A DNA stretch of 64,000 bases from an uncultured Caldilineaceae bacterium (GCA_964467575.1 CAYXRG010000001.1:42652-106651), one strand, 5' to 3'; positions 5,513 to 46,153 are shown, counted from the stretch's first letter. Program-made: numbers and translations. The notes: generated by a model not told the origin, from the letters alone.

Positions 5513-6807
5513 GGGCTGATCATATTGCCCGCAGGCCCGAAACTGAGCGGAACTTCTTCGATGATCTCCAGGCGCGGGTGCTCTTGGACTGCCTGTCGCA
5601 GGTTAGGGCTCACCCACAGCCTATCTACGGCCAACGTGTCGTTGATAAAGACGAGCCGTGCATCGGCGGCGGAACGTGCGCAGCCGCGCATTGTCACCTG
5701 CAGGGCGCGGCGATCATCCGCCATCGTGATCGGCACGCTCGACCGGAACATGCCGAAGATGCCCGACGTAACCGCGTTGGTGTAAGTGGCTGTCCAGTCA
5801 GTCTTCTCGACCACGCGCGCGGTTGTCACATTGGCAAGCCCAATCCCGGATGCATTGCCGTGCGTCTCTTCCGTCAGATCAAGCACAGCGATCACGGCAA
5901 CGTCGATAGTACCGAAGTGTTCCGGCTGGCGGGGGATCATCAGGCGGCTGACGATGTTGGTGTCCATGCCAGTCCCGCTGATGTCTTTGCCGATCTCTCG
6001 TAAGACGAGCACGTCTATCTCCGGAAAGGGCAGGCTCGCCATCAACGACTTGGCCTTCTCCAGCAGTTCAACTTCGCGCGCTGTACCTACTTCAGCCGCC
6101 GTTAGTCCGACGATCTCAGCGGTCTCGTCATAGGCATTCTCGATCAAGCAGATTGCGCCGGCAAAGTTCGTATTCTGTTCATAGACGCGCGCCGCCGGCT
6201 CCAGATAGCGCTGGAAGTTGGCCCCGCCGCCGGCATGCATCATGATGGCGCCGGCCTGTTTGCCCAGCCCGATCACGCACATCTTGGATGGGCCGCTCTC
6301 CAGGTGGCTGCGGAAATCGGTGTGTGGCTTGATCCGGCTGACAAGCACCGTGTGGTCCGCCGCCATCGAGTCCACGCCCTGGCACAGCGGCGGCCCGTCG
6401 GGTATGCGCCCGATCTCCTTAACCTCCATCGTCGCTTCGATGCGAACGCCGATCGACGCCTCGGTCACGCCGAGTTGGGCCAACATCTCGATCTGCCCCG
6501 GAGCTGTTGCGCCGCCGTGACTGCCCATCGCCGGCGCCACGTAAGGCTGCATCCCAGCCGCTTTCAGACGGTCTACGACGGAACGCACGATCACAGGCAG
6601 GTTGGCGATGCCACGGCTGCCAACGCCCACGGCGACGCTGTCGCCCGCTTTCATGCGCTCCAAGATGCCGGAGCTATCCAACGCCTGAGCAGCCGCAGCC
6701 GCCACATCCTCGACCTTTGGCGCATCGAAGCGCTGGTGTACGGCAAGCAACCTCTCCGGCAGTTGCGCCGGAAATTCTAGCGCCTGAATCTCTTCAAGAA
6801 GCTTCAT
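5497..6807 (-). CDS. LarA-like (DUF2088, lactate-racemase N-terminal domain) protein
   Basis: 436 aa. The pattern GDSVAVGVGSRGIANLP...APAMGSHGG resembles the LarA_N fold signature (DxTR...GxHR region) but is divergent. The assignment is by pattern memory only. Confidence 0.5.
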   Translation of the reverse strand: MKLLEEIQALEFPAQLPERLLAVHQRFDAPKVEDVAAAAAQALDSSGILERMKAGDSVAVGVGSRGIANLPVIVRSVVDRLKAAGMQPYVAPAMGSHGGATAPGQIEMLAQLGVTEASIGVRIEATMEVKEIGRIPDGPPLCQGVDSMAADHTVLVSRIKPHTDFRSHLESGPSKMCVIGLGKQAGAIMMHAGGGANFQRYLEPAARVYEQNTNFAGAICLIENAYDETAEIVGLTAAEVGTAREVELLEKAKSLMASLPFPEIDVLVLREIGKDISGTGMDTNIVSRLMIPRQPEHFGTIDVAVIAVLDLTEETHGNASGIGLANVTTARVVEKTDWTATYTNAVTSGIFGMFRSSVPITMADDRRALQVTMRGCARSAADARLVFINDTLAVDRLWVSPNLRQAVQEHPRLEIIEEVPLSFGPAGNMISPWQLD

Positions 6808-34111: not shown

Positions 34112-34254
34112 GGTAGTTAGCCTCCTTGCGGGTTGGTCGTCTTCGTCTATGCGGGTATGGCTTTCGCCCTTTAAGGGGCGGTATACAAGGCAGCGCTAAG
34201 CGCGGGCTCAAGACTGTAAGTTTGGACTAGATGCGCCAATCAACCAAACAAGGA

Positions 34255-34278
34255 CGGGCCTCACCGCAGTGAAGCCCG
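34255..34278 (-). terminator. candidate intrinsic terminator of the hydrogenase operon
   Basis: The minus-strand RNA CGGGCUUCAC-UGCG-GUGAGGCCCG forms 10 bp with one G-U pair. It is followed by the partly U-rich tract UCCUUGUUUGGUUG. It lies 38 nt after the hycI-like stop. Confidence 0.5.
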
Positions 34279-34315
34279 CCGAATCAGCAGACGCGAATTT
34301 TGTGCGCCGCCTCGC

Positions 34316-34876
34316 TTATCTCGTTTGCGTCTCAGAATATACAACAACATTCGTCTGCGCAGCAGCCGCAATCCCCGCGACAACCTGATCGACCGCAGAT
34401 GCTACGGCCGCGCTGAGCGGCGCGTTCAACGTCAGATCCGCCGGCTGAATGCCGATAATCCAAACCTCGCAACCCATTGTGACAGACATGAAGCTCGCCA
34501 AGGACGACAGCGGCCCGGTATGCGACGAAGCGCTGAAACCGGTCACGTCTCGCCAGTCCAGCCACCTCACAACGCCAGGTTCTGCATCCATGTGCGCCGC
34601 GTCGATGAGCAACACCAGGTCTGGCCCGAATCGCCTCACCGCGCCGGTGAAGTTCTCCGGCACATAGCAGGCCTCGATCACCAGCAGATGCTCATTCGAC
34701 AGAGCCTGCAAGCGCTTGGCGATCTCAACCCCGGCGGCGTCGTCCCCGAACAACGTCTGGCCGACGCCCATCACAGCCAGGCGTATGGGGCGCTCGCGAC
34801 AAGCCGGCGTCGACCGAATGCGGCTAAGTGTTGCTTGCAGCCAGTGCGTCCATGACCTGTTTGATGTCATCTTCAT
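34316..34876 (-). CDS. hycI: hydrogenase maturation endopeptidase (HycI-type)
   Basis: RLAVMGVGQTLFGDDAAGVEIAKRL and SSHTGPL motifs. The start is uncertain (ATG at 34876 or 34870). The ORF-track start at 35017 lies inside the upstream gene. Confidence 0.75.
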   Translation of the reverse strand: MKMTSNRSWTHWLQATLSRIRSTPACRERPIRLAVMGVGQTLFGDDAAGVEIAKRLQALSNEHLLVIEACYVPENFTGAVRRFGPDLVLLIDAAHMDAEPGVVRWLDWRDVTGFSASSHTGPLSSLASFMSVTMGCEVWIIGIQPADLTLNAPLSAAVASAVDQVVAGIAAAAQTNVVVYSETQTR

Positions 34877-35231
34877 TCCCGTACGTCTTCGTAAAGCCCT
34901 CGCGCCCTGCGGCGGCAAGTTCCCATTCCTCCGACGACATATGGATCGAATCGAATCGGCAGACCTGGAGGCACTGCCCGCAGTAGATGCATGCGTCCTC
35001 GTGCCAGCGCATGACAAAACGCTTAGCTTTCCTGTCTACCACGATTAGTTCCAACGCATTTGCCGGGCAGTCCTTCACGCACAGGTTACAGCCTGTGCAT
35101 TTATCCGGCGACCACGTCAACAGCCCGCGCGTGCGTTCAGGCGTCCGGCGTTTCTCAAACGGATACGCTTCTGTCGCCGGCTTCTTGAACAACGAGCGAA
35201 GCGTGTCGCCCACCATCGTACCGATTCTCAT
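34824..35231 (-). CDS. 2x[4Fe-4S] ferredoxin-type subunit (NuoI/HycF-like)
   Basis: CTGCNLCVKDCP and CIYCGQCLQVC motifs. The ATG at 35231 forms an ATGA overlap with the upstream stop. Confidence 0.85.
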   Translation of the reverse strand: MRIGTMVGDTLRSLFKKPATEAYPFEKRRTPERTRGLLTWSPDKCTGCNLCVKDCPANALELIVVDRKAKRFVMRWHEDACIYCGQCLQVCRFDSIHMSSEEWELAAAGREGFTKTYGNEDDIKQVMDALAASNT

Positions 35232-36163
35232 GAGAAGATGCCTCCCCTCGACATATCCAGCGCAAACAACGCCAGCCACTGCACCAGCACTGCCAGCGAC
35301 CCGTACCGCCACCACAAGCCGACCGTTTGGTCGATACGCAACCGTGTCATCAAAGCCTGGAAGCCCGCCAAACCGAGCAACAGGACCAGCGTCTTCATCA
35401 GATAGGCAAGCGGCGATGCGACTCCGCCAAGATAGAACGCAGCGATGAGCGTGAGGCCCAGCACAAGTTCTGCGCTCCGGCCTAAGTGGAACAATGCCAA
35501 TCCGCGGCCGCTGTACTCAGTCATAGCGCCAGCCACGATCTCGGTCTCGGCCTCAGGCGCATCGAACGGCGGCAGTTCCAGTTTCCCAGCCAGGCCGATG
35601 ATCGCAATCACGAAGCCGATTGGCTCTCGCAGTAACAGCAGATGGCTGCCCGCATATTCGTTGATCTCGGAGATCTGCCAACTTCCGGCGGCGATGGCAG
35701 GCCCAAGCAGGGCCAACATGAACGGCGCCTCATATGAGAACAACTGCGTCAACGTTCGCGTCGCACCGAGAAGCGAGAAACGGCTGCCCGTGTTCGCCCC
35801 GGCCAAGCCCATCGAGATGGTCAGCAAACTCAACAGATAGACCGTTACGATCAGGTCGCCCTGAAAGCTGAGGAGCGGCCCGATCCCGCCGACAGGCATG
35901 TACAGCGCCGCGGTCAGCGGGCCGGCAACCGCCACGATCGGCAACAGATTGAACAGCGTCGCGTTGACGCCGGTCGGCACAATCTCTTCCTTGACCATCA
36001 GTTTCGTAACGTCCGCCAGCGGCTGAAACCAGCGCGGACCAACGCGGTTCTGCTGGCGCGCCAGTATCTTCTTGTCGAGCCATTCGTACAAGATGCCATT
36101 GAACAGCAGAAACAGGCCGCTCGGGAAGATCAGGATGGCGCCAAGACTTAGTATCGTGTTCAT
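35228..36163 (-). CDS. NuoH/HycD-like integral membrane subunit
   Basis: QNRVGPRWFQPLADVTKL, the PFD(A)PEAE-type loop LPPFDAPEAETEIV, and 8 TM segments. The ATG at 36163 forms an ATGA overlap with the large-subunit stop. Confidence 0.85.
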   Translation of the reverse strand: MNTILSLGAILIFPSGLFLLFNGILYEWLDKKILARQQNRVGPRWFQPLADVTKLMVKEEIVPTGVNATLFNLLPIVAVAGPLTAALYMPVGGIGPLLSFQGDLIVTVYLLSLLTISMGLAGANTGSRFSLLGATRTLTQLFSYEAPFMLALLGPAIAAGSWQISEINEYAGSHLLLLREPIGFVIAIIGLAGKLELPPFDAPEAETEIVAGAMTEYSGRGLALFHLGRSAELVLGLTLIAAFYLGGVASPLAYLMKTLVLLLGLAGFQALMTRLRIDQTVGLWWRYGSLAVLVQWLALFALDMSRGGIFS

Positions 36164-37821
36164 CGGTACCGTTCTATCCCGTATTGTCGCAGCCGCTCCC
36201 AACTCCACTTTTGAGAGTCCCCGTCCGCCGACCGTACGGCCACAGCGCGGTCATTGCAGGAGAAGCACGGATCGACTCCTGCCAGGATCATGGGCATATC
36301 AGCGAACTGGTGGCCCACAGCCGATACGATCACCGTACCAAGATTCAGGATGGTGGGCGTGCGAATCTTAATGCGCTCCGGCGTCTCGCCGCCTGCGCTG
36401 CGGATATAGTAGAACAGCTCGCCACGCGGCGCCTCGACCCGGCTGATCGTCTCACCAGCCTTCACCCGGCGCGGCATTCGCGTCGTCAACTCGCCTTCCG
36501 GCAGATTTTCCAACATCTCGCGAATCATCACGATCGTCGCCCGAATCTCTTCAAGCCGAATGATGAAGCGCGTCTCCAGGTCTCCTGCTGTCGCAACGAC
36601 CGGCTCGATGGGGAAATCGAGATACGCGCCATAAGGAGCGTCGACCCGGATATCGCGCAGCACGCCTGATGCGCGTGCCGTCGGGCCGAGCGCGCCCAAC
36701 TCCTCCGCCTGTTCCTTTGTCATCACGCCGATCCCGCGCGTCCTCTGCAGGAACATCGTGTCTTTGGTCGATACGTTGAGATAGTGGCGCACGCGCTCGT
36801 CAAGAAATTCGATCCCCTTATAAACCTTCTCGGTCAATTCAGGGGTGATGTCGTACTTGACGCCGCCCAGCACATTGATCGAATAATTGACGCGATTGCC
36901 GCTGATCTCCTCAAGCAAGTCCATCACGGTCTCGCGGTCGCGCCAGGAGTACATAAACAGCGTATCGAAGCCGGCCTCATGCGCGGCCACGCCAAACCAA
37001 AGCAGATGGCTGTGGATACGCTCCAGGCCGGCCACGATCTCACGAATCACGCGCGCCCGCGCCGGAACTTCCACCCCGGCCAAATGCTCCACGCCCAGAC
37101 AGTATGCCTGTGCGTGAATGTGGGAACAGATCCCGCACACCCGCTCTAACAAATAGAGGTTCTGCGTCCAGTTCATGTTCTGGGTCGCCCGTTCTATGCC
37201 GCGATGAGCATAGCCCAGACGCACCGACGCGCCGGTGACGATCTCGCCGTCGAGCGTGAACTCGAAGTGCGCCGGCTCCTTGAGTGCAGGGTGCTGCGGG
37301 CCAATCGGGACTACGAACGTTTCGCCTTCAGCCTCCGCCGGCTTTGTTACGCGAGGCTCACGCTTGACCAGTTCGGCCGCGTCAAAATCGCGGCGCAAGG
37401 GGTAGATTTCCTCAGGCCAGTCGTCAGGCAGATAGAGCAGACTTCGGTCGGGCGTGTTCACCACGTCGATGCCGAACATTTCGATCAGTTCGCGCTCTTG
37501 AATGCTGGCCGAAGGGATGATAGCGCACACGCTCGGCGTTGCCGGATGTTCGCGCGATAGGGCCACGCGCAACGTAACCACTGTCGGCCCTGAACAGAAG
37601 TGGTACAACGCCTCCATCTCGCCATCCTCGCCGGACGGGTCGATGCCTGAGATCGTCGATAGATACCCCCAACGCGCATCGTGCAACGCACGCACCGCGT
37701 CCAACAATTCATCCGGCCGGATCGACACGTAGATGCGATTCTGTTCTGGCGCCTGCATTCGCTCACGCCACGGCTGCAGAAGCGTTTCAGCCTGCTGCTG
37801 GGTCTCCATTGTGGTTTCCAT
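36160..37821 (-). CDS. [NiFe]-hydrogenase large subunit, NuoC-NuoD-type fusion (HycE-like, group 4)
   Basis: N-terminal NuoC-like domain followed by PIGPQHPALKEP. The L1 motif is ERVCGICSHIH and the L2 motif is DPCFSCNDR, followed by a 28-aa C-terminal extension. The ATG at 37821 is preceded by AAGGAAG. Confidence 0.85.
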   Translation of the reverse strand: METTMETQQQAETLLQPWRERMQAPEQNRIYVSIRPDELLDAVRALHDARWGYLSTISGIDPSGEDGEMEALYHFCSGPTVVTLRVALSREHPATPSVCAIIPSASIQERELIEMFGIDVVNTPDRSLLYLPDDWPEEIYPLRRDFDAAELVKREPRVTKPAEAEGETFVVPIGPQHPALKEPAHFEFTLDGEIVTGASVRLGYAHRGIERATQNMNWTQNLYLLERVCGICSHIHAQAYCLGVEHLAGVEVPARARVIREIVAGLERIHSHLLWFGVAAHEAGFDTLFMYSWRDRETVMDLLEEISGNRVNYSINVLGGVKYDITPELTEKVYKGIEFLDERVRHYLNVSTKDTMFLQRTRGIGVMTKEQAEELGALGPTARASGVLRDIRVDAPYGAYLDFPIEPVVATAGDLETRFIIRLEEIRATIVMIREMLENLPEGELTTRMPRRVKAGETISRVEAPRGELFYYIRSAGGETPERIKIRTPTILNLGTVIVSAVGHQFADMPMILAGVDPCFSCNDRAVAVRSADGDSQKWSWERLRQYGIERYR

Positions 37822-38332
37822 GTGCGTCTTCCTTTTCTGAAACGAATTCTGAGCCTGCCTCTGCAGGAATGCGGCTTGGGTCGACTTTTTGCAGCAGTTT
37901 GATGACGCCGTCGATGATCGCCTCTGGGCGCGGCGGACAGCCGGGAACGAACACATCGACCGGAATCACCTTCTCGATCCCGCCAAGGCAGTTGTAGCTA
38001 TCGTGGAAGACTCCGCCGGACAGCGCACACGATCCGACCGCGATTACGAACTTGGGTTCCGGCATCTGCTCGTAAATGCGCTGCAAGCGCTCGCGAGATT
38101 GCCGTGTTACCGGCCCGGTGCAGATCAGCACGTCGGCGTGACGCGGGCTGCCGTGCAACGTTACGCCCAGCCGTTCCACGTCGTAACGCGGCGTCAATGC
38201 AGCAAGTATTTCGATGTCACAACCGTTGCACGAGCCGCTGTTGTAGTGGATGGCCCAAGGCGAGTTCTTCCGCGCCCATGTCGCCACCTCATCGAGGATC
38301 CTCTGCCAGGGCTTATCTAGTTCAACGCTCAT
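37787..38332 (-). CDS. hydrogenase small subunit (NuoB/HycG-like, one [4Fe-4S])
   Basis: GSCNGCDIE, VGSCALSGG and GCPPRPEA motifs. Confidence 0.85.
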   Translation of the reverse strand: MSVELDKPWQRILDEVATWARKNSPWAIHYNSGSCNGCDIEILAALTPRYDVERLGVTLHGSPRHADVLICTGPVTRQSRERLQRIYEQMPEPKFVIAVGSCALSGGVFHDSYNCLGGIEKVIPVDVFVPGCPPRPEAIIDGVIKLLQKVDPSRIPAEAGSEFVSEKEDAHGNHNGDPAAG

Positions 38333-38344
38333 TCTGCACTTTCC

Positions 38345-38659
38345 TTATCCCAAGATCAACGCCCACAGGGCGACGATCAGCCCCGCGAGAAACGCAATAC
38401 TCGTCGGCGTCGGCGCGCTCGTCCCCAACACCAAGACGCCCAGATGCAGCACCGCAAAGAATAGCGCAATCACAAAAAACGGGCGATATCCCGGTGCGCC
38501 GAAACTCACCGGCGCCGCCTCCCCGCTTGAATAAGTGCTGGACTTCTCTTCCGATTGCTTGCCGCGGAACGCCGCGTACCCCCCGAGCCCGCTCAACAGA
38601 GTCACCAATCCGATATTGATGAGAAAGGCTACCGGCGGGCTTAGAATAATTGTGTCCAT
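38345..38659 (-). CDS. small three-TM membrane protein, NuoA-like
   Basis: YSSGEAAPVSFGAPGYRPFFVIALFFAVLHLGV parallels the NuoA pattern YE(S/C)G...F...FY..A..F..FDVE, but the DVE segment reads HLG here. Length is 104 aa. Confidence 0.5.
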   Translation of the reverse strand: MDTIILSPPVAFLINIGLVTLLSGLGGYAAFRGKQSEEKSSTYSSGEAAPVSFGAPGYRPFFVIALFFAVLHLGVLVLGTSAPTPTSIAFLAGLIVALWALILG

Positions 38660-38691
38660 TTACTCTAGTCCTTGTGGATGATTCACGCGCC

Positions 38692-40209
38692 TTAGCTGCC
38701 GAACATCGCGCTCAGCGCACCGCCTGCTGGGACGATTAGCCAGTAGACCAGGCGCGGCCATACCCCGACCGCAATTACGGCCAACGTCAACACAGCCATC
38801 GGTATACGCATGGAGATAGGCAGCCTCACGCCCTCCATGACTGCTGTTGACGGCTGCCGGCGATAGACTGCGTTGACTATCGGCGCGTAATACGCCAACG
38901 ACAGGACGCTGTTCAGCGCAGCAAAGACCACCAGAAGGCCGATAACCGTGTTGTGCGCCTCGAACCCAGCCACGAAAATCTGCCATTTGGACATAAAGCC
39001 TGCCAACGGCGGCAAACCGGCCAACCCCAGCACGGCGATGCTCAGAGCCAACGCTTCAAACGGGTAACGCCGTGCCGCGCCGTTCAAATCTCCAAGGGTC
39101 AGGCCGTGATCCTGGCTGGTATCGTGGCTGGCTCCGCTGGTCGCGTAGATAAACGCGCCGGCGGCAAGGAATGCCAGCCCCTTCATCATGCCGTGCGTGA
39201 GCAAATGAAACAGCCCGCCCTGAGCGCCGTTCGCCTGTCCGATGTAGACGGCAACGCCTATGCCGAGCAACATGTATCCCATATGACTCAGACTTGAGTA
39301 AGCCAGAAGTCGCTTCACTTGCGTCTGCCGCAGCGCCATCAGGTTGCCCAAGAGCATATTCACCGCAGCGAAGGCCATCAGCAGCGCGCCCCATGACGGC
39401 ATGACATCGCCTGAAAGCGCGCCAAGCACGCGCAGGAGCGCGATCAAGCCCGCCTCGATCACCACGCCGGATAGTAGTGCGCTGATCCCGCTTGGCGCCT
39501 GCGCGTGGGCGTCCGGCAGCCAGGTATGCATCGGAACCAGCGCGATCTTCACGCCAAAGCCGATAGTGAACAGCGCCCCTGCCCCCAAAAGGACCGGCGT
39601 TGTCATATTGGCAGCAGCCAGCGCTCCGAAGCCGATTTCACCTGTATGTGCAAAGACGAGCGCAATGCCGATCAAAACCGTCACCGACCCGACCGCGCTC
39701 TGCACTAGGTACTTGACGCCCGCCTCTAGCGCCGTCGGGCGGTCACGATAGAACACGACCAGCAAATATGACGAAACCGCCATGCCCTCGAACCATACCC
39801 ACAGGTTAAACAGGTCATTGGCGCAACCAAGCCCGATGATCATCCCCGTCATCGCCACAACGGACGAATAGTACTTCTCGTCGCCAAGTTTGCCGGACAT
39901 GTGGGCCTTGGAATAGAGGATGACCAAGGTCCCCAGCGCCAACGCTGCCGCCGCCAACAAGAGGCTCAACCCGTCTACGATAAGCGCTACATCGCCATAG
40001 ACGAGCACAATCGGGCCGGTCGCAGCGAACTGGCGCACGGTCAGGACGTAAGGAATCCACAACACTGCCATCACCAGCAGCGCTGCCGAGTTGACTGCAG
40101 TTGTCAACCCTTCCGGGCGGTTTTTTTCGACGGCGCGACCGAACAGATAGATCGCCGGCGCCATGACCAATGGCAGGAAGATCATCAGTACTGCTGCGTT
40201 CACGCTCAT
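38692..40209 (-). CDS. antiporter-like subunit (NuoN/NuoM/MrpD family proton-conducting membrane transporter)
   Basis: 505 aa with about 14 TM segments. Motifs include WLPDAHAQAPSG and LAYSSLSHMGYM. Confidence 0.85.
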   Translation of the reverse strand: MSVNAAVLMIFLPLVMAPAIYLFGRAVEKNRPEGLTTAVNSAALLVMAVLWIPYVLTVRQFAATGPIVLVYGDVALIVDGLSLLLAAAALALGTLVILYSKAHMSGKLGDEKYYSSVVAMTGMIIGLGCANDLFNLWVWFEGMAVSSYLLVVFYRDRPTALEAGVKYLVQSAVGSVTVLIGIALVFAHTGEIGFGALAAANMTTPVLLGAGALFTIGFGVKIALVPMHTWLPDAHAQAPSGISALLSGVVIEAGLIALLRVLGALSGDVMPSWGALLMAFAAVNMLLGNLMALRQTQVKRLLAYSSLSHMGYMLLGIGVAVYIGQANGAQGGLFHLLTHGMMKGLAFLAAGAFIYATSGASHDTSQDHGLTLGDLNGAARRYPFEALALSIAVLGLAGLPPLAGFMSKWQIFVAGFEAHNTVIGLLVVFAALNSVLSLAYYAPIVNAVYRRQPSTAVMEGVRLPISMRIPMAVLTLAVIAVGVWPRLVYWLIVPAGGALSAMFGS

Positions 40210-40210
40210 G

Positions 40211-41956
40211 CTAGACGCTCCAGGCCAAGATGATGAGGACTGCGATCAGACCGAAAGCCATCCCGGCGATATTCCAGTTGAGTTGGCCAGTCTGCGTCCG
40301 TTGCAGAATCGCCCCGGCCTTCTGCGTCGCCGCTCCTGTCAATCGGTTAATCGTCTCCAGCCCGAAGCCGCTCTCCGACGCGGCCGCCAGCCAACCGGGA
40401 CTCCTTGCCGCCCAGGGCAGACGGCCGCGCCACTGCCATACAGCCATCCCGACTAGAGCCGCGCCCAGCGCCAGATAGGTAGCCGGCGCTCCGAGGACCT
40501 CCGCCGCCAGGTGGCCTACGGTCAGTTCATGCAATCCGTGCGCAGGCAGGGTTGCGGCCAACATCCGGCTGAAGCTTCCCGCAAATAGCCATGTCGCAAA
40601 CGTTCCCGCAGCCAGAATTGCGAGCGAGATCTTCATCGCACGCCCGGCGTCGTGGGCCTGTCGTCCGCCATCCTGGCTGAAGAAGACCATAGACACGCCG
40701 CGCAGCGTATACAGGGCGGTCAACGCCACTCCGACCAGCATGATTGCATACGCCCATGCCGGCCCGTGCAGCAAGCCCTCTTCCAGGATCAGTTCCTTGC
40801 TCCAGAAGCCATTCAACGGCGGAAGCCCAATCAGGGCGATCGCTCCGATAATGAACACGTTGCGCACAAAAGGCATTCGACGGCCTACGCCGCCCATTTC
40901 CCGCATGTCGCGAGTTCCCAACGCATGGATGATCGAGCCTGCGGCGAGGAACAACAACGCCTTAAACACGGCATGGCTCAATAGGTGGAACTGGCTGGCA
41001 AAGACACCGCCCACACCTACCGCATAGACCATATAGCCGAGTTGGCTGACGGTGGAATAAGCGAGCAGGCGCTTTAGGTCGGTCGCCACGATCGCCATGA
41101 GCGCCGCAATCAGAGCGGAAATCAGACCAACTAGCGCCACCGCTGTACGCCAGCCCGGTACGTCTGCAAAAGCCGGGTAGAGCCGCGCCAATAGGTAAAT
41201 ACCGGCGTTCACCATCGTGGCGGCATGAATCAACGCGCTTACCGGCGTCGGCGCTTCCATCGCGTCCGGCAGCCATGTGTGGAACGGGAATTGGGCGGAC
41301 TTAGCCGCGGCGGCGATCAACGCACCGTAGGCCATCAGGCCCAACACGGCTGTCGGAATGCCTGGCGCCGCCGCCAGGAACGTCGAAATTTCGAAGCTCC
41401 CTGTCTGAGCATAGGCCATCAACGCCAACGCCAGCAGCCCGACCCCGCCCAACTGGGTGATAATAAGCGCCTTGATGCCCCCGGCCACTGCTTTAGGATC
41501 ATCGTTATAAAACGAAATGAGCGCATACGAGCAGAGTGCGGTGATCTCCCAAAACAGAAACAGGAAGAATAGGTTGCCGGTCAGCGCCAAAGCCGCCATC
41601 GCGCCGATGAAGTACAGAACGAACGAATAATAGCGGCCTAACTGCGCCTCGCCCGCCATGTAGTCGACTGAAAAGATGACGGCGAGGCTGCCGACTACAG
41701 TCGCCACCGCGGCCAGAAAAACAGCCAGTCCGTCAGGCACAAAAGTCAGGTCGCCGAACATCGGCCCGAACGAGACGCTGACAGCCTCCGCACCGCTGGC
41801 CTGAGGCAGCAACGCTAACGCTGCAACCGCCGCCGCCGCGGAAAATCCTACGGCAACGGCATGTTGAGCTTTTTCGCGGCCATCGCCAATTACCGCGACA
41901 ATCAGCCCGCCCAAGACCGGCAGCCCGATTGCCAGCCAAATCAATAAAGCAAGCAT
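40211..41956 (-). CDS. antiporter-like subunit, NuoL/MrpA-type with C-terminal lateral-helix region
   Basis: 581 aa. Motifs include FPFHTWLPDAMEAPTPVSALIHAATMV and LAYSTVSQLGYM. The C-terminal amphipathic stretch (GFGLETINRLTGAATQKAGAILQ) is followed by a final TM helix. Confidence 0.85.
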   Translation of the reverse strand: MLALLIWLAIGLPVLGGLIVAVIGDGREKAQHAVAVGFSAAAAVAALALLPQASGAEAVSVSFGPMFGDLTFVPDGLAVFLAAVATVVGSLAVIFSVDYMAGEAQLGRYYSFVLYFIGAMAALALTGNLFFLFLFWEITALCSYALISFYNDDPKAVAGGIKALIITQLGGVGLLALALMAYAQTGSFEISTFLAAAPGIPTAVLGLMAYGALIAAAAKSAQFPFHTWLPDAMEAPTPVSALIHAATMVNAGIYLLARLYPAFADVPGWRTAVALVGLISALIAALMAIVATDLKRLLAYSTVSQLGYMVYAVGVGGVFASQFHLLSHAVFKALLFLAAGSIIHALGTRDMREMGGVGRRMPFVRNVFIIGAIALIGLPPLNGFWSKELILEEGLLHGPAWAYAIMLVGVALTALYTLRGVSMVFFSQDGGRQAHDAGRAMKISLAILAAGTFATWLFAGSFSRMLAATLPAHGLHELTVGHLAAEVLGAPATYLALGAALVGMAVWQWRGRLPWAARSPGWLAAASESGFGLETINRLTGAATQKAGAILQRTQTGQLNWNIAGMAFGLIAVLIILAWSV

Positions 41957-41962
41957 AAACGA

Positions 41963-42286
41963 TTATCTCCGCAGAGTGGACAGCTCATTGAGATCAAGCG
42001 TGCCCCACGTCTTTTGCACTTGTACGGCCAGCGCAAGCGCAATGACGGCGACAACGGTATCCACAACGATCACCGTGACCGCCAAGCTTTGGCCGAGCCC
42101 CGGCTTGCCGGTGACATTGCCGGCAAGCGCCATGCCCAGGATTGCGGCCTTTGCCATCAGTTGCAGCAGAATAACAATCTTGATCAAGTTCCGAGTCACC
42201 ATCAGCCCAACAAGGCCAATGCCGAACAGCAGGACGATCCCTGCAAACACAATCTGTATAGACTGGACGGACAATGCTGGCATCAT
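41963..42286 (-). CDS. NuoK/MnhC-like small membrane subunit
   Basis: 107 aa with three TM segments. The pattern NLIKIVILLQLM...LAVTVIVVDTVVAV is typical. Confidence 0.75.
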   Translation of the reverse strand: MMPALSVQSIQIVFAGIVLLFGIGLVGLMVTRNLIKIVILLQLMAKAAILGMALAGNVTGKPGLGQSLAVTVIVVDTVVAVIALALAVQVQKTWGTLDLNELSTLRR

Positions 42287-42804
42287 GCGGCAACCTCATC
42301 ATCTGGCGTCGCGATTCGTTCCAACGTCGCGGCCTCTTTTCCGGCCGGCGCGTCTACGACAAGATTCAAAATGCCCAAGACGCCGGCAAGAATCAGCGCG
42401 ATCTGTACCCACATATCGACCGCCCGCGACTCCCATAGTACTGTCTGAAGCGTGACTGTCTCAGCATCCGCTGGCGCAGGCGCCGCCGGCCACAGGAGCC
42501 ACCCGATCCAACCAACGGCGACAATGCTTACAATCCACGCCAACGGTCGCGGTATAAGGGAAGGTAAATCGCGCGTTAGTTCCCCGGCAAGGCCAATCGC
42601 AAAAACAAAGATCACCGTAACCAGACCGGCGCCTACGCTCAGTTCGATGGCCGAGACCAGAGGAGCGTTCATCGCATAGAGGATGACGGCGACGAGTACG
42701 CTAACGCCCGCCAGCCACAACACGGCCACGATCAGCCGCTGCGCCCTCACCGCCTGTATGCCGCAGAGAACCATGCCTGCTACCAGCGCTAGATACAGCC
42801 ACAT
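42283..42804 (-). CDS. NuoJ-like membrane subunit
   Basis: 173 aa. The segment APLVSAIELSVGAGLVTVIFVFAI follows the NuoJ pattern. There is an ATGA overlap with the next gene. Confidence 0.7.
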   Translation of the reverse strand: MWLYLALVAGMVLCGIQAVRAQRLIVAVLWLAGVSVLVAVILYAMNAPLVSAIELSVGAGLVTVIFVFAIGLAGELTRDLPSLIPRPLAWIVSIVAVGWIGWLLWPAAPAPADAETVTLQTVLWESRAVDMWVQIALILAGVLGILNLVVDAPAGKEAATLERIATPDDEVAA

Positions 42805-43112
42805 CGTTACCTCTCCTCGATGAAGTCGCCCTTGCTCCGGCGTAATCCCGGGACGTCGCTTATCTGCGCGATAGCATCGATCGCGCCGCTATACCCCGCC
42901 GTCCATAGTACCTTGCGCCTGCGCATCGGTCATTGTGGCCGCGCAAAGTCGCCAACATTGTCCGCTCCCGGTCTATGTCCCGCTACGCCGCTGTCACCGG
43001 CTTGTCGCTACGCAGGCGGCAACGGTGCGCGACGACTGTCCGCGACATCGATACAGGTTTTTTTGCGTATAGATGACGCCTGATGGCGACTGAATCGAGG
43101 CGGACGCAGCGC

Positions 43113-44440: not shown

Positions 44441-45505
44441 TTAATAGATCCGGCCGTACTCCCACCCTGCTTCGTACATCGCAACCACGTTCTCCGGAGG
44501 GCTGACAGCCTGAATGTTATGGCAAGGCGCCAGCACGTACCCCCCGCCCTGCCCCATGATCTCGATATTCTCGCGCACCTCTGCCCGCACCTCGTCGACC
44601 GTGCCGAACGGCAGCGTATATTGATTGTCCACGCCCCCGTGCAAGACAACCTTGTCGCCGAAGTCCTTCTTCAGCCCGGACCGATCCATGCCAGGAGAAC
44701 GCCACTGTATCGGGTTCAGTATGTCGACCCCGATCTCGATCATGTCAGGTATGATCCGCCGGATGGCCCCGTCGCTGTGAAAGAACGCATATGCGCCGGC
44801 CTGGTGCGCCAGGTCGACCATGCGCTTCATGCGCGGCAGGAAGAACTCGCGGATTACCGCAGGAGAGAAAAGCAAGCTCTCCTGCCCGCCGAAATCTTCC
44901 GCCACATACGAAAGATTGACCTGGTCTGGGATCTGCTCGTAGATGCGGAGGGTGTTCTCGTAACAGAAGTCGAACAGCTTATCTAGGCAATAGTGAACAA
45001 TGTCCGGATGCTCAACCAGGTCAATATAGGACTGCTCACGGCCGCGTAGTTCCGCGTAGATCAAAAACGGCTCGGAGCCGCCCCCCCGGATTGGGTAGTT
45101 ACGTTTGCGACCGCGTATCTGGCCCGGAATGTCCGAATAGTCGAACCAGTCAACGCTAGGCCACGTGTAATTGGCCTCGATCTCATCGACCGAATGATAC
45201 CCTTCCAGCGGACCGCTAATGCACTCCAGATACTTGCCGCCACCGTAGTCGACATTCTTGTAACGCCGCCCATACATGTCGGTAAGGCGCGGCAGCTTTG
45301 GCCCTACGTACTCCGGGCCGACTCCTACGACCGCGTCGATCCGGAGCCGTTCGATCATGTCCCAGCGCGTGCGACACCCCAAGTAAGCTCGTACCTTGCG
45401 GGTGGCCTCAGGCGTCCCCCAATAGTCCATTGGCACGCGATCCGGAGTCTGGCCCGCCAATACGGCGAGCCAGCGCTCCTTTGGCGTCATGCTGTCTCCG
45501 GCCAT
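44441..45505 (-). CDS. uroporphyrinogen-decarboxylase-family protein (MtaA/MtbA-like corrinoid methyltransferase)
   Basis: The N-terminus PKERWLAVLAGQTPDRVPMDYWG and the segments HSDGAI and LNPIQ follow the UROD-fold pattern. It sits directly downstream of a corrinoid protein. Confidence 0.7.
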   Translation of the reverse strand: MAGDSMTPKERWLAVLAGQTPDRVPMDYWGTPEATRKVRAYLGCRTRWDMIERLRIDAVVGVGPEYVGPKLPRLTDMYGRRYKNVDYGGGKYLECISGPLEGYHSVDEIEANYTWPSVDWFDYSDIPGQIRGRKRNYPIRGGGSEPFLIYAELRGREQSYIDLVEHPDIVHYCLDKLFDFCYENTLRIYEQIPDQVNLSYVAEDFGGQESLLFSPAVIREFFLPRMKRMVDLAHQAGAYAFFHSDGAIRRIIPDMIEIGVDILNPIQWRSPGMDRSGLKKDFGDKVVLHGGVDNQYTLPFGTVDEVRAEVRENIEIMGQGGGYVLAPCHNIQAVSPPENVVAMYEAGWEYGRIY

Positions 45506-45517
45506 GCCGTACTCGCC

Positions 45518-46153
45518 CTACACGACCAGCGATTTAGCGAGCGTCGCCGCCTGGCTAGCGTCCGGTGCAAACCCGTCCGCGCCGATACGCTGCGCAAAGG
45601 ATTCGGTGACAGGTGCGCCGCCTACCAACACTTTCACCTTGTCGCGCGCGCCGGCGTCGTCCAGTTTCTTGATCACCTCGGCCATGTTCGGCATGGTGGT
45701 TGTCAGAAGCGCAGACAGCGCAATGATGTCCACATCTCCGGCCTTGGCCGCCTCTACAAACTGCTCCGGCGCCACGTTCACGCCCAGGTCCTTGACCTCG
45801 AAACCCGCGCCTTCCATCATCATGCCAACCAGATTCTTGCCGATGTCGTGCATGTCGCCGCGCACGGTGCCGATCACGACGCGGCCAAGCGGCTCCACCG
45901 CTTCCTCGATCAAGCGAGGACGCAACAGCGTCAGACCGCCCTTCATCGCCCGGGCGGCGACGAGCATCTCCGGCACGAAGAACTCGCCTTCCTCGAACTT
46001 CGCGCCGACCTCGCGCATCCCGTCGATCAGCGCTTGATCCAGGATCGCCTTGGGGGCGATGCCGCCCTCCAACGCCGCCTTTACCTGTGACTCGACCTCT
46101 CCCGCGTTGCCCTGAATGACGGCTGTCCGGATGGCAGTCAGGATATCGTCCAT
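45518..46153 (-). CDS. cobalamin-binding corrinoid protein (MtbC/MtmC/MetH B12-domain type)
   Basis: N-terminal helical cap followed by the B12 domain. Motifs are DxHxxG (GDMHDIGKN), SALLTTT (SxL) and VGGAPV (GG). Confidence 0.85.
   Translation of the reverse strand: MDDILTAIRTAVIQGNAGEVESQVKAALEGGIAPKAILDQALIDGMREVGAKFEEGEFFVPEMLVAARAMKGGLTLLRPRLIEEAVEPLGRVVIGTVRGDMHDIGKNLVGMMMEGAGFEVKDLGVNVAPEQFVEAAKAGDVDIIALSALLTTTMPNMAEVIKKLDDAGARDKVKVLVGGAPVTESFAQRIGADGFAPDASQAATLAKSLVV

What the first reader, a model, noticed from the sequence alone, without database searches (positions are those of the whole stretch)
34316..42804. Ten-gene [NiFe]-hydrogenase operon built on a complex-I subunit set (NuoJ-K-L-N-A-B-CD-H-I plus HycI) with no visible electron-input module
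Seen in sequence: ten co-directional minus-strand genes are separated by gaps of at most 32 nt or overlap (by up to about 50 nt). Three are ATGA start/stop overlaps (42283-42286, 36160-36163, 35228-35231). The catalytic subunit (36160-37821, 553 aa) is a NuoC-NuoD-type fusion. It keeps both Ni-Fe cysteine pairs (ERVCGICSHIH and DPCFSCNDR) and has a 28-aa C-terminal tail. The last gene is a HycI-type endopeptidase. This predicts a matured, functional hydrogenase rather than a ligand-less Ehr or complex-I relative. The small subunit has hydrogenase-type GSCNGCDIE, GSCALSGG and GCPPRPE motifs. Unlike Ech (two membrane subunits) or Hyc, the membrane arm has discrete NuoA-, NuoJ- and NuoK-like proteins. 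It also has a NuoL-like subunit with an apparent lateral helix and terminal anchor, and only one further antiporter-like subunit. The small- and large-subunit genes overlap by 35 nt.

Established knowledge: group 4 energy-converting hydrogenases and complex I share the B/D/H/I/L modules. Subgroups with complex-I-like membrane arms are the least characterised.

Inference: this is a respiratory-type proton- or sodium-pumping hydrogenase with an unknown redox partner. No fdhF, cooS, nuoEFG, ferredoxin or hypA-F gene lies in this window.
Basis: partly seen in the sequence, partly recalled or inferred. Interest (0 to 1): 0.8.

Follow-up and report, generated by a model that had tools for sequence, protein, structure and literature searches.

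The report
Complex-I-like membrane hydrogenase operon, Anaerolineae
This is an intact ten-gene operon for a membrane-bound, ion-pumping nickel-iron hydrogenase whose membrane part resembles respiratory complex I; it is real and well conserved across one class of Chloroflexota bacteria, but it is a variant of a known enzyme class, not a new kind of system.

Summary
Both Ni-Fe cysteine pairs align with E. coli HycE and P. furiosus MbhL. The HycI metal-binding residues are present.

The subunit labels need refinement. The core is Mbh-like: small subunit to MbhJ, proximal antiporter-like subunit to MbhH, and the N-terminus of J to MbhD. The large subunit is a HycE-like C-D fusion. The distal subunit is NuoL-type with a shortened lateral helix. 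The unannotated 104-aa protein is a NuoA/ND3 homologue.

The order J-K-L-N-A-B-CD-H-I-hycI is fixed in all 53 complete loci of 80 genomes of class Anaerolineae. No flanking gene family recurs, so there is no electron-input module in cis in any of them. That is normal for ferredoxin-dependent group 4 hydrogenases such as Ech and Mbh.

The most likely function is ferredoxin:H+ oxidoreduction coupled to ion pumping. The nearest relatives outside the family are archaeal complex-I-like [NiFe] hydrogenases (40-46% identity), an architecture already described for Asgard archaea. No characterised enzyme exceeds about 43% identity or shares the gene order.

Verdict: a new variant of a known kind, of moderate interest.

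The parts
42283..42804 (-). NuoJ/MbhD-type membrane subunit (173 aa), first gene of the operon. GAGGAGAGG lies upstream of the ATG.
   Evidence: Pfam Oxidored_q3 (E=9e-9) and MbhD (E=3e-6). PDB: MbhD 6cfw_D E=6e-7, and 3e-10 with a family profile; MbsD next; NuoJ/ND6 weaker but aligned through TM4. E54 is invariant in the family.
41963..42286 (-). NuoK-like subunit (107 aa).
   Evidence: Pfam Oxidored_q2 E=4.5e-16; NCBIfam NuoK models score best. E. coli NuoK E36 and E72 correspond to invariant Q42 and V79, with an invariant D76 nearby.
40211..41956 (-). Distal antiporter-like subunit of NuoL/ND5/NdhF type (581 aa), with a short lateral helix and a C-terminal anchor TM.
   Evidence: NCBIfam NuoL 428 bits. 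PDB: NdhF/Nqo12/NuoL 247-259 bits versus MbhH 192; E. coli NuoL aligns over 7-577 against 5-609. 39% identity to E. coli NuoL. Conserved residues: E137, K219, H244, H324, H328, K332, K387, E388. AF2 pLDDT 88, pTM 0.91; helices 521-528 and 530-552, then TM 561-580. The top 50 Foldseek hits are all NuoL/ND5/NdhF/MrpA, TMq 0.68-0.84. There is a 24-residue deletion in the lateral-helix region relative to E. coli NuoL.
38692..40209 (-). Proximal antiporter-like subunit (505 aa), of MbhH/MrpD type and not specifically NuoN.
   Evidence: PDB: MbhH 6cfw_H 201 bits (E=3e-58) versus MbsH 143 and NuoN 125. The best NCBIfam model is PRK08376. Channel residues E141, K221, H335, H339, K343 and K408 are conserved.
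38345..38659 (-). NuoA/ND3 homologue (104 aa, 3 TM). It has no Pfam or NCBIfam hit.
   Evidence: A profile of 32 orthologues hits ND3/NuoA in 14 of 15 PDB matches, full length, best E=0.007. hhalign against an alignment of E. coli, Bathyarchaeota and Asgard NuoA: probability 96.4%, E=1.4e-9. Invariant K39, Y43, G46, E47, P56-G57-Y58 and H72. The ND3 'FD.E' acidic motif is replaced by LHLG. An orthologue was found in 75 of the 80 fetched loci, many of which are cut at a contig end.
37787..38332 (-). Hydrogenase small subunit (NuoB/MbhJ type, 181 aa) with one proximal [4Fe-4S] cluster.
   Evidence: Pfam Oxidored_q6 E=6e-36. PDB: MbhJ 195 bits, well above NdhK 143 and HycG 138. The CxxC (GSCNGC), GSCALSGG and GCPPRPE motifs are hydrogenase-type, unlike the CC motif of complex I (motif knowledge from memory).
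36160..37821 (-). [NiFe] large subunit, a NuoC-NuoD fusion (553 aa). Ligands C229, C232, C519, C522; 28-aa C-terminal extension after R525.
   Evidence: Pfam Complex1_30kDa, NiFeSe_Hases and Complex1_49kDa. phmmer against PDB: HycE 2.6e-88, MbhL 4.6e-84, with the Cys motifs aligned. Identity: 34.5% to HycE, 33% to HyfG, 28% to NuoCD; D domain 42.8% to MbhL. AF2 pLDDT 85.7; best Foldseek match 7z0s_E with TM 0.84/0.87. All four Cys are invariant in 60 family members.
35228..36163 (-). NuoH/MbhM/HycD-type membrane anchor (311 aa).
   Evidence: Pfam NADHdh E=2e-68. PDB: NdhA 116, MbhM 99, Nqo8 97 and HycD 83 bits. The PFDxPEAExE motif is conserved.
34824..35231 (-). NuoI-type 2x[4Fe-4S] subunit (135 aa), the presumed ferredoxin docking and electron entry point.
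   Evidence: Pfam Fer4 and Fer4_21; NCBIfam PRK08348 and NuoI. Motifs CTGCNLCVKDCP and CIYCGQCLQVCR.
34316..34876 (-). HycI-type maturation endopeptidase (186 aa). It overlaps the NuoI-like gene by 53 nt.
   Evidence: TIGR00142 hycI E=7e-31 (107 bits, cut-off 119). TIGR00072 scores 89.6 bits and passes its cut-off of 47.45. HupD/HybD models score 35 bits or less. D45/D46, D92 and H119 are invariant columns aligned with E. coli HycI, which is 31% identical.
34253..34280 (-). Terminator-like hairpin after the last gene.
   Evidence: 12-pair stem with 8 G-C pairs, followed by a T-rich tail, 36 nt after the HycI stop. This is a consensus match only.
42805..43112 (-). 308-nt upstream intergenic region, the presumed promoter and leader.
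   Evidence: It is the only long non-coding stretch bordering the operon. No sigma-70-like site was found on the minus strand and there is no Rfam match. Its function is not shown.

Best explanation
The operon encodes a nine-subunit, membrane-bound, energy-converting (group 4) [NiFe]-hydrogenase and its dedicated HycI maturation protease.

Inferred mechanism:
1. Reduced ferredoxin, made elsewhere (for example by pyruvate:ferredoxin oxidoreductase), docks directly on the NuoI-like subunit.
2. Electrons pass through its two [4Fe-4S] clusters and the single cluster of the small subunit to the Ni-Fe site in the fused NuoC-NuoD large subunit. There protons are reduced to H2.
3. The reaction is coupled to two antiporter-like pumps through the NuoH/NuoA/NuoJ/NuoK interface. 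One pump is a proximal MbhH-type subunit. The other is a distal NuoL-type subunit, whose short lateral helix and terminal TM clamp the arm.
4. Ions, probably protons, are translocated. The enzyme should be reversible.

Shown: the gene set, intact ligands and channel residues, homologies, and conservation of the operon. Inferred: the ferredoxin partner, the direction, the ion and the stoichiometry.
For: - Ligands and maturation: the L1/L2 Cys pairs align with HycE and MbhL and are invariant in 60 homologues. A C-terminal extension and a HycI-type protease with metal-binding residues are present.
- Electron wire: the small subunit has four cluster Cys and is closest to MbhJ. The NuoI-like subunit has two 4Fe-4S motifs.
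- Pumps: all canonical TM5 Glu, TM7 Lys, TM8 His/Lys and TM12 Lys residues are present in both antiporter-like subunits. The lateral helix is supported by alignment and by the model. Helix HL length scaling with the number of antiporter-like subunits is published (PMC8165549).
- No input module: gaps of 32 nt or less leave no room inside the operon. The flanks are unrelated. In 54 related loci the commonest flanking family is an ABC transporter, present in only 9. Two sampled neighbourhoods with precomputed Pfam annotation likewise showed no such module.
- Precedent: the Mbh-like core matches a ferredoxin-dependent enzyme. The same ferredoxin-docking model has been proposed for the related Asgard complexes.
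- Selection: the ten-gene order is fixed across the class Anaerolineae, in 53 complete loci.
Against: - There is no biochemical or expression evidence.
- No ferredoxin, PFOR or hyp gene lies in this window, so partner and maturation rest on genes not seen here. hypF is adjacent in only 3 related loci.
- Three potential ion paths per 2 e- would need more energy than ferredoxin-to-H+ transfer gives, except at very low H2 (my own thermodynamic estimate). The stoichiometry or the direction may therefore differ.
- The NuoK-like subunit lacks the two conserved complex-I glutamates (Q42, V79). NuoA lacks the acidic TM2 motif. The central coupling path is therefore not complex-I-like in detail.
- A related Bathyarchaeota cluster carries an FrhB/FpoF-like gene, which shows that relatives can use dedicated input subunits.
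Confidence: 0.62

Rival explanations
1. The hydrogenase works with a dedicated soluble electron-input module encoded elsewhere in the genome. Candidates are formate dehydrogenase plus a HycB-like ferredoxin, CODH/CooF, NuoEF-like or FrhB/FpoF-like proteins. The physiological reaction would then be formate-, CO-, NAD(P)H- or F420H2-dependent H2 production, as in formate hydrogenlyase.
For: The large subunit is a HycE-like C-D fusion, and HycE is the best full-length sequence and fold match. The related Bathyarchaeota cluster has an FrhB/FpoF-like gene directly after nuoN. Group 4b clusters in Chloroflexota carry Fdh-like subunits (PMC13582414).
Against: No such gene recurs next to the operon in 54 loci or lies in this window. 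The NuoI-like subunit is short (135 aa), whereas HycF is 180 aa by its coordinates. The small subunit, the proximal pump and the D domain are closer to ferredoxin-dependent Mbh than to Hyc.
Confidence: 0.15
2. It is the same enzyme, but in vivo it runs mainly in reverse. It consumes the membrane potential to drive H2 oxidation and ferredoxin reduction, supplying low-potential electrons. This is what Ech does in methanogens and in T. kivui.
For: Two antiporter-like pumps plus the central path suggest a high ion:electron ratio, which favours pmf-driven ferredoxin reduction (inference). Ech-type enzymes are reversible, and Ech2 of T. kivui reduces ferredoxin with H2 at the expense of the gradient (PMC10986591). 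By relatedness the host belongs to the order Caldilineales, whose cultured members include aerobes that could supply pmf by respiration (from memory).
Against: Sequence does not set the direction. Many Anaerolineae that carry the operon are fermenters that must dispose of reductant (from memory). The closest structural relatives, MBH and FHL, are H2 evolvers.
Confidence: 0.18
3. It is not a hydrogenase in function. It would be a complex-I-like or MBS/Ehr-like oxidoreductase that reduces quinone, sulfur or another acceptor.
For: Automatic annotation names the subunits NADH-quinone oxidoreductase C/D/L. The best NCBIfam scores for the D domain are NuoD models. A close sister clade has lost the Ni-Fe ligands.
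Against: All four Ni-Fe Cys are invariant in the family. At the position of the complex-I quinone-ligand Tyr the window has C229-G230. A HycI protease gene and a cleavable extension are conserved in cis. All NuoD model scores are below their cut-offs. No NuoEFG is present.
Confidence: 0.03

Closest known systems
Complex-I-like group 4 [NiFe]-hydrogenases of archaea: Heimdallarchaeia groups 4j/4m/4p/4q (Appler et al., bioRxiv 10.1101/2024.07.04.601786), and the Bathyarchaeota/Asgard clusters found here (P0276/L088, P0286/L086).
   Same: The large subunit is a fused NuoC-NuoD with all four Ni-Fe Cys. Both have NuoA, B, H, I, J, K and L-type subunits and lack NuoEFG. The membrane arm is shorter than in complex I, and ferredoxin docking on NuoI is predicted. 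They are among the nearest full-length C-D fusion relatives outside the family (40-46% identity); the unnamed 517-aa fusion P0126 (43% overall, 46% in the D domain) branches closer in the rough NJ tree.
   Different: They are archaeal and keep the canonical nuo gene order A-B-CD-H-I-J-K-L-(M)-N, not J-K-L-N-A-B-CD-H-I. The Bathyarchaeota version has three antiporter-like subunits and an FrhB/FpoF-like gene. No hycI was seen in cis in those loci. Their NuoA passes Pfam Oxidored_q4, whereas the Anaerolineae one does not.
Membrane-bound hydrogenase MBH of Pyrococcus furiosus (group 4d, PDB 6CFW).
   Same: It is the best structural homologue of the small subunit (MbhJ), the proximal antiporter-like subunit (MbhH) and the N-terminal half of J (MbhD). 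The D domain is 42.8% identical to MbhL. Membrane genes precede the B-C-D-H-I block in the window, as in mbhA-N (mbh order from memory). It has no dedicated input module and uses ferredoxin.
   Different: MBH has 14 subunits, including MrpEFG-like MbhA-C and MbhF for Na+ handling, and only one antiporter-like subunit. Its C and D subunits are separate. It has MbhI in place of a NuoA homologue and no NuoL-type distal subunit. None of the extra Mbh genes is present in this operon.
Formate hydrogenlyase Hyc and Hyf of E. coli (group 4a, PDB 7Z0S).
   Same: The large subunit is a NuoC-NuoD fusion with a C-terminal extension, and the protease is HycI-type. HycE is the best full-length sequence and fold match.
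   Different: Identity is only 33-35%. FHL has the FdhF/HycB input module. It has no NuoA or NuoJ homologue, only a NuoK-like region in HyfE. Its gene order is different, and HycC lacks the TM7 Lys.
Respiratory complex I without the N-module (11-subunit Nuo, Fpo, NDH-1).
   Same: Ten of the eleven subunit types are present: A, B, C, D, H, I, J, K, L and one of M/N. The L subunit is 39% identical to E. coli NuoL and has a lateral helix. The gene order is a cyclic permutation of nuo.
   Different: There is a Ni-Fe site where complex I has its quinone site. The small subunit has a CxxC motif. One antiporter-like subunit is missing. The NuoK glutamates and the NuoA acidic motif are not conserved. 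A maturation protease is present.
Ech-type hydrogenases (group 4e) and T. kivui Ech2 (assigned to group 4g).
   Same: They are ferredoxin-coupled, energy-converting and reversible, with no separate input module. JGI annotates many family members as 'ech hydrogenase subunit E'.
   Different: Ech has six subunits with two membrane proteins. The T. kivui ech2 cluster has eight genes in 6.77 kb, against ten genes in 8.5 kb here. The nearest Ech-sized relatives (360 aa, e.g. Pelolinea P0320) lack both the C-terminal extension and the C fusion.

Membership tests
Group 4 (energy-converting) [NiFe]-hydrogenase | Large subunit has the two CxxC Ni-Fe ligand motifs (L1 RxCGIC..H, L2 DPCxSCxDR). | tested here: met
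   C229/C232 and C519/C522 align with the HycE and MbhL motifs. They are invariant in 60 homologues.
Group 4 (energy-converting) [NiFe]-hydrogenase | Small subunit of NuoB type with a single proximal [4Fe-4S] cluster. | tested here: met
   Oxidored_q6 E=6e-36. Cluster Cys at 35, 38, 102 and 132. Best PDB hit is MbhJ at 195 bits.
Group 4 (energy-converting) [NiFe]-hydrogenase | A NuoH-like anchor, a NuoI-like 2x[4Fe-4S] subunit, and at least one antiporter-like membrane subunit in the same operon. | tested here: met
Group 4 (energy-converting) [NiFe]-hydrogenase | H2 evolution or uptake coupled to ion translocation. | not testable with these tools
   This needs membranes or purified enzyme.
HydDB subgroup assignment (4a-4i, 4j-4q) | Placement of the large subunit by the HydDB classifier or a reference ML tree. 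| not tested
   No HydDB tool or reference set was available. A rough NJ tree puts the family in its own clade. It lies 63-73% within the clade, against 51% or less to all else. HycE and HyfG lie far outside, and MbhL is in a neighbouring large clade. A Bathyarchaeota group 4 enzyme, whose relation to the cluster found here was not tested, is classed 4g in HydDB (PMC5037454), so the catch-all 4g is likely. This is an inference.
Formate hydrogenlyase (group 4a) | FdhF and HycB-type input subunits associated with the hydrogenase genes. | tested here: not met
   None in the operon, in the window, or recurrent in 54 related loci.
Mrp-linked MBH (group 4d) | MrpE/F/G-like MbhA-C and MbhF subunits in the operon. 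| tested here: not met
   Ten genes are accounted for, none of these types, and gaps of 32 nt or less leave no room.
Ech (group 4e) | Six-subunit complex with two membrane subunits. | tested here: not met
   Nine structural subunits, six of them membrane proteins.
Respiratory complex I (NADH:quinone oxidoreductase) | Quinone-site residues in NuoD in place of the Ni-Fe Cys, and a NuoEFG N-module. | tested here: not met
   The Cys are retained, and the position of the complex-I Tyr is C229-G230. There is no NuoE/F/G in the window.
Ehr (hydrogenase-related, ligand-less) | Loss of the Ni-Fe cysteines. | tested here: not met
   All four Cys are present. In contrast, the sister cluster P0130/P0300 has lost them.
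Complex-I-like group 4 hydrogenases (Asgard 4j/4m/4p/4q type) | A NuoA-B-C-D-H-I peripheral/anchor set and NuoJ-K-L(+M/N) arm, an active-site-complete NuoD, and no NuoEFG. | tested here: met
   All subunit types were identified. This is architectural membership only. Phylogenetic membership in those named subgroups was not tested; identity is 40-46%.
HycI-type endopeptidase | HycI family profile and metal-binding Asp/Asp/His. | tested here: met
   TIGR00072 passes. TIGR00142 scores 107 bits, just under its cut-off of 119. D45/46, D92 and H119 align with E. coli HycI.

The most novel reading that the evidence does not exclude
The Anaerolineae enzyme may be a distinct, so far undescribed bacterial subgroup of group 4 hydrogenases that is a structural intermediate between MBH and complex I. 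It has an Mbh-type catalytic core and proximal pump. It lacks the Mrp Na+ module. It has gained or kept a NuoL-type distal pump with a lateral helix sized for two pumps, and a NuoA homologue with an invariant His in place of the acidic motif. Its nearest relatives are archaeal complex-I-like hydrogenases. If so, it could show how the complex-I membrane arm was assembled.
Probability: 0.3. Interest if true: 0.6.

Novelty: new variant of a known kind. Interest (0 to 1): 0.45.

Why it matters
Group 4 hydrogenases are the accepted relatives of the ancestor of respiratory complex I, but only MBH, MBS and FHL have solved structures. This family combines an active Ni-Fe site with ten of the eleven complex-I core subunit types. 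It is strictly conserved across a large and environmentally abundant bacterial class found in wastewater, sediments and digesters. It could therefore matter for H2 budgets in those systems. It is also a practical target for a structure that bridges MBH and complex I.

For annotation, its subunits are routinely misnamed as NADH-quinone oxidoreductase subunits, and the NuoA-like gene is left unannotated. This inflates complex-I calls in Chloroflexota genomes.

Tried and rejected
1. Conserved cis partner. I clustered 418 flanking ORFs from 54 loci. The largest family (an ABC transporter) is in only 9 loci and hypF in 3. I rejected the idea of a conserved input module in cis.
2. Extra subunit in the N|A gap. 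Nine loci have gaps over 150 nt. They hold an ApbA-like reductase (L013) or an unassigned 163-aa ORF (L015). These are sporadic insertions, not subunits.
3. The 104-aa protein. Pfam, NCBIfam and single-sequence PDB searches gave nothing. Only profile methods worked.
4. T. kivui Ech2/group 4g as the same system. Rejected on gene number and cluster size.
5. FHL. Rejected because there is no FdhF/HycB.
I redid it with database homologues.
7. Literature. Greening 2016 and Chadwick 2018 are not held. The HydDB supplements do not mention Anaerolinea. Searches for group 4f/4g in Chloroflexi gave no description of this operon.
8. Rfam scan of the whole window: no hits. No sigma-70-like promoter lies upstream on the coding strand.
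9. The NJ tree is distance-based and most reference tips are unnamed, so I did not use it to assign a HydDB subgroup.

Full report
**Observation.** The region 34316-42804 holds ten intact, co-directional minus-strand genes of 173, 107, 581, 505, 104, 181, 553, 311, 135 and 186 codons.
- 4-nt ATGA overlaps at J/K, CD/H and H/I;
- gaps of 6, 1, 32 and 12 nt;
- a 35-nt overlap between the small- and large-subunit genes;
- a 53-nt overlap between the NuoI-like and HycI genes.

All ten genes start with ATG. A strong hairpin with a T-rich tail lies just past the last stop codon. A 308-nt non-coding stretch with a GAGGAGAGG ribosome-binding sequence precedes the first gene. G+C content is uniform with the flanks. 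The same proteins are called on at least 14 independent contigs of the same population.

The flanking genes are unrelated housekeeping functions: a lactonase, a URO-D-like and B12-binding protein pair, an alanine-racemase-like protein and an Ldh_2 protein. Pfam scans of the longest mutually non-overlapping ORFs of the window (ORFs that largely overlap a longer ORF were left out) found no Fdh, CODH, NuoEFG or Hyp genes. The only classical 4Fe-4S ferredoxin motif in all six frames of the window belongs to the NuoI-like gene.

**What each gene is.** Pfam and NCBIfam identify nine of the ten products.
- **Large subunit.** It carries Complex1_30kDa, NiFeSe_Hases and Complex1_49kDa domains. In the PDB it matches E. 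coli HycE best (E=2.6e-88), then P. furiosus MbhL (4.6e-84). RVCGIC and DPCFSCNDR align to the Ni-Fe ligand motifs of both, and the 28-residue tail aligns to the cleaved extension of HycE. An AlphaFold model (pLDDT 85.7) superposes on HycE with TM 0.84/0.87. The four Cys are invariant in 60 homologues.
- **Small subunit.** It has hydrogenase-type cluster motifs and is clearly closest to MbhJ (195 bits, next hit 143).
- **HycI.** The last gene is HycI-type and not HyaD/HybD-type. It keeps the Asp/Asp/His triad of E. coli HycI.
- **'NuoL'.** This label holds. NdhF, Nqo12 and NuoL score 247-259 bits against 192 for MbhH. E. coli NuoL aligns end to end. All channel residues are present. The model (pLDDT 88, pTM 0.91) has a two-segment amphipathic helix at 521-552 followed by a terminal TM at 561-580. 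Its top 50 structural neighbours are all NuoL/ND5/NdhF/MrpA. Compared with E. coli NuoL, 24 residues of the lateral-helix region are missing. This fits the published rule that helix HL length tracks the number of antiporter-like subunits (PMC8165549).
- **'NuoN'.** This label is only approximate. MbhH scores 201 bits and NuoN 125.
- **'NuoJ'.** The N-terminal three helices match MbhD/MbsD best. The length and TM4 match NuoJ/ND6.
- **The 104-aa protein.** It has no hit in any library. A profile of 32 orthologues hits ND3/NuoA in 14 of 15 PDB matches. Profile-profile comparison with NuoA from E. coli, a Bathyarchaeon and an Asgard archaeon gives 96.4% probability. It is a NuoA homologue in which the TM2 'FD.E' motif is replaced by an invariant LHLG.
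- **NuoK-like protein.** It has invariant Q42 and V79 where complex I has its two glutamates, and an invariant D76 nearby.

Overall the complex is a mosaic. It has an Mbh-like catalytic core and proximal pump, a HycE-like C-D fusion, and complex-I-type NuoL and NuoA.

**Distribution.** The large subunit has more than 7,900 relatives among 90%-identity clusters. It has 414 confirmed relatives in a one-genome-per-species collection. Of the 80 best, 79 are titled as Chloroflexota or as one of its lineages; one is labelled Bacteroidota. The closest are Caldilineales at 84-90% identity, and the rest are about 60%.

In every one of the 80 fetched loci the genes are in the order J-K-L-N-A-B-CD-H-I-HycI. 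Fifty-three loci are complete and span 8.4-9.9 kb. No flanking gene family recurs: the most frequent is an ABC transporter in 9 of 54 loci, and hypF is adjacent in 3. Occasional insertions between N and A are unrelated genes. The complex is therefore self-contained in cis across the fetched loci.

**Relatives outside the family.** In a library of 50%-identity representatives the whole family collapses to one representative, 56% identical to the query. All other full-length representatives are 50% identical or less.
- **Bathyarchaeota.** Among the nearest full-length C-D fusions are Bathyarchaeota proteins (42%). Their operon is nuoA-B-CD-H-I-J-K-L-M-N followed by an FrhB/FpoF-like gene. All four Cys are kept. 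An unnamed 517-aa fusion, P0126 (43%), branches closer in the NJ tree.
- **Asgard archaea.** Proteins from Promethearchaeota/Hodarchaeota are 40% identical. One locus holds A-B-CD-H-I. All four Cys are kept.
- **Unnamed metagenomic family.** At 48% identity, with C and D unfused, it has hypA-hypB-hypF'-L-N-J-K-A-B-C-D-H-I-hycI. Its A-like protein is homologous to the one here.
- **Rough NJ tree.** The Anaerolineae clade is separate. MbhL (42.8% in the D domain) lies in a neighbouring large clade. HycE and HyfG (35%) lie far outside.

**Literature.** A 2024 preprint on Asgard archaea describes new group 4 subgroups (4j, 4m, 4p, 4q). These complexes 'architecturally resemble Complex I' and have NuoBCDI without NuoEFG.

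A survey of the Chloroflexi supergroup records 'NiFe type 4' membrane hydrogenases across the group without analysing them in the main text. HydDB's group 4g is an admitted catch-all of unknown function, and it includes a Bathyarchaeota enzyme. I found no paper describing this Anaerolineae operon, and I could not run HydDB.

**Mechanism.** The best-supported reading is a ferredoxin:H+ oxidoreductase. The electron path is ferredoxin, then two clusters in I, then one cluster in B, then the Ni-Fe site in CD, then H2. The reaction is coupled through H/A/J/K to two intact antiporter-type channels (N and L), and is reversible.

The lack of an input module is what one expects from Ech and Mbh and is not an anomaly. 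The ferredoxin partner, the ion, the stoichiometry and the direction are inferred. Three possible ion paths per electron pair would be thermodynamically demanding for H2 evolution unless H2 is kept very low. A lower stoichiometry or physiological reverse operation therefore remains open.

Rival readings are a dehydrogenase module encoded in trans, predominantly H2 uptake, and a non-hydrogenase function. I rate them at 0.15, 0.18 and 0.03.

**Verdict.** The operon belongs to a widespread, conserved and uncharacterised family that is a variant of the known energy-converting hydrogenases. Its architecture is already published for archaea. Interest is moderate (0.45). It is a good structural and biochemical target, and a recurrent annotation error, but not a categorically new system.

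Noticed in passing
L090:9564-11176 (NCBI GCA_041618035.1); protein cluster P0130/P0300: This is the closest sister of the family in the NJ tree (51% identity in the D domain). It has lost the Ni-Fe ligands (F, C, Y, F at the four Cys columns). It occurs as an orphan pair of separate NuoC-like and NuoD-like genes next to a CBS-domain protein. No B, H, I or membrane subunits lie within 10 kb. The cluster has 29 members.
   Followed up: partly
L088:7848-18896 (Bathyarchaeota metagenome scaffold): A full nuoA-B-CD-H-I-J-K-L-M-N operon whose fused CD subunit keeps all four Ni-Fe cysteines. It is followed directly by an FrhB/FpoF-like gene with two CBS domains. It looks like an Fpo-like complex with a hydrogenase active site.
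   Followed up: partly
L091:3446-13080 (ENA metagenome contig): A second, related operon type (large subunit 48% identical): hypA-hypB-partial hypF, then L-N-J-K-A-B-C-D-H-I-hycI with C and D unfused. Its 106-aa A-like protein shares the invariant His.
   Followed up: partly
Proteins P0055 (706 aa), P0056 (728 aa), P0068 (728 aa); L082:10001-12187: Some family members appear as NuoB-NuoC-NuoD triple fusions (PF01058, PF00329 and PF00346). The one locus I inspected is a frameshift-rich assembly, so the fusion may be an artefact.
   Followed up: no
window 38345-38659 and 41963-42286: The NuoA homologue has an invariant His72 where ND3/NuoA has its acidic FD.E motif. The NuoK homologue has invariant Gln42/Val79 where complex I has Glu36/Glu72, and an invariant Asp76. 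Together these suggest a central coupling path unlike that of complex I.
   Followed up: partly
window 193-2466 (-): A 757-aa molybdopterin protein of the xanthine dehydrogenase/CoxL family (Ald_Xan_dh_C, MoCoBD_1, MoCoBD_2) lies at the edge of the window. No CoxM/CoxS partners are visible inside it.
   Followed up: no
window 44441-46153 (-): A URO-D-family protein and a B12-binding two-domain protein lie side by side, as in corrinoid-dependent methyltransferase systems, about 1.6 kb upstream of the hydrogenase operon.
   Followed up: no
window 5693-5788 (-): ARAGORN calls a 96-nt tRNA-Arg(TCG) inside a 436-aa ORF. Rfam finds no tRNA there, so this is probably a false positive.
   Followed up: partly
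L013:6966-8087 and L015:8595-9086: In a few Anaerolineae genomes an unrelated gene is inserted between the N and A genes of the otherwise fixed operon: an ApbA/PanE-like reductase in L013 and an unassigned 163-aa protein in L015.
   Followed up: yes
L082:15191-20878: In one relative a V/A-type ATPase operon lies directly downstream of the hydrogenase operon.
   Followed up: no
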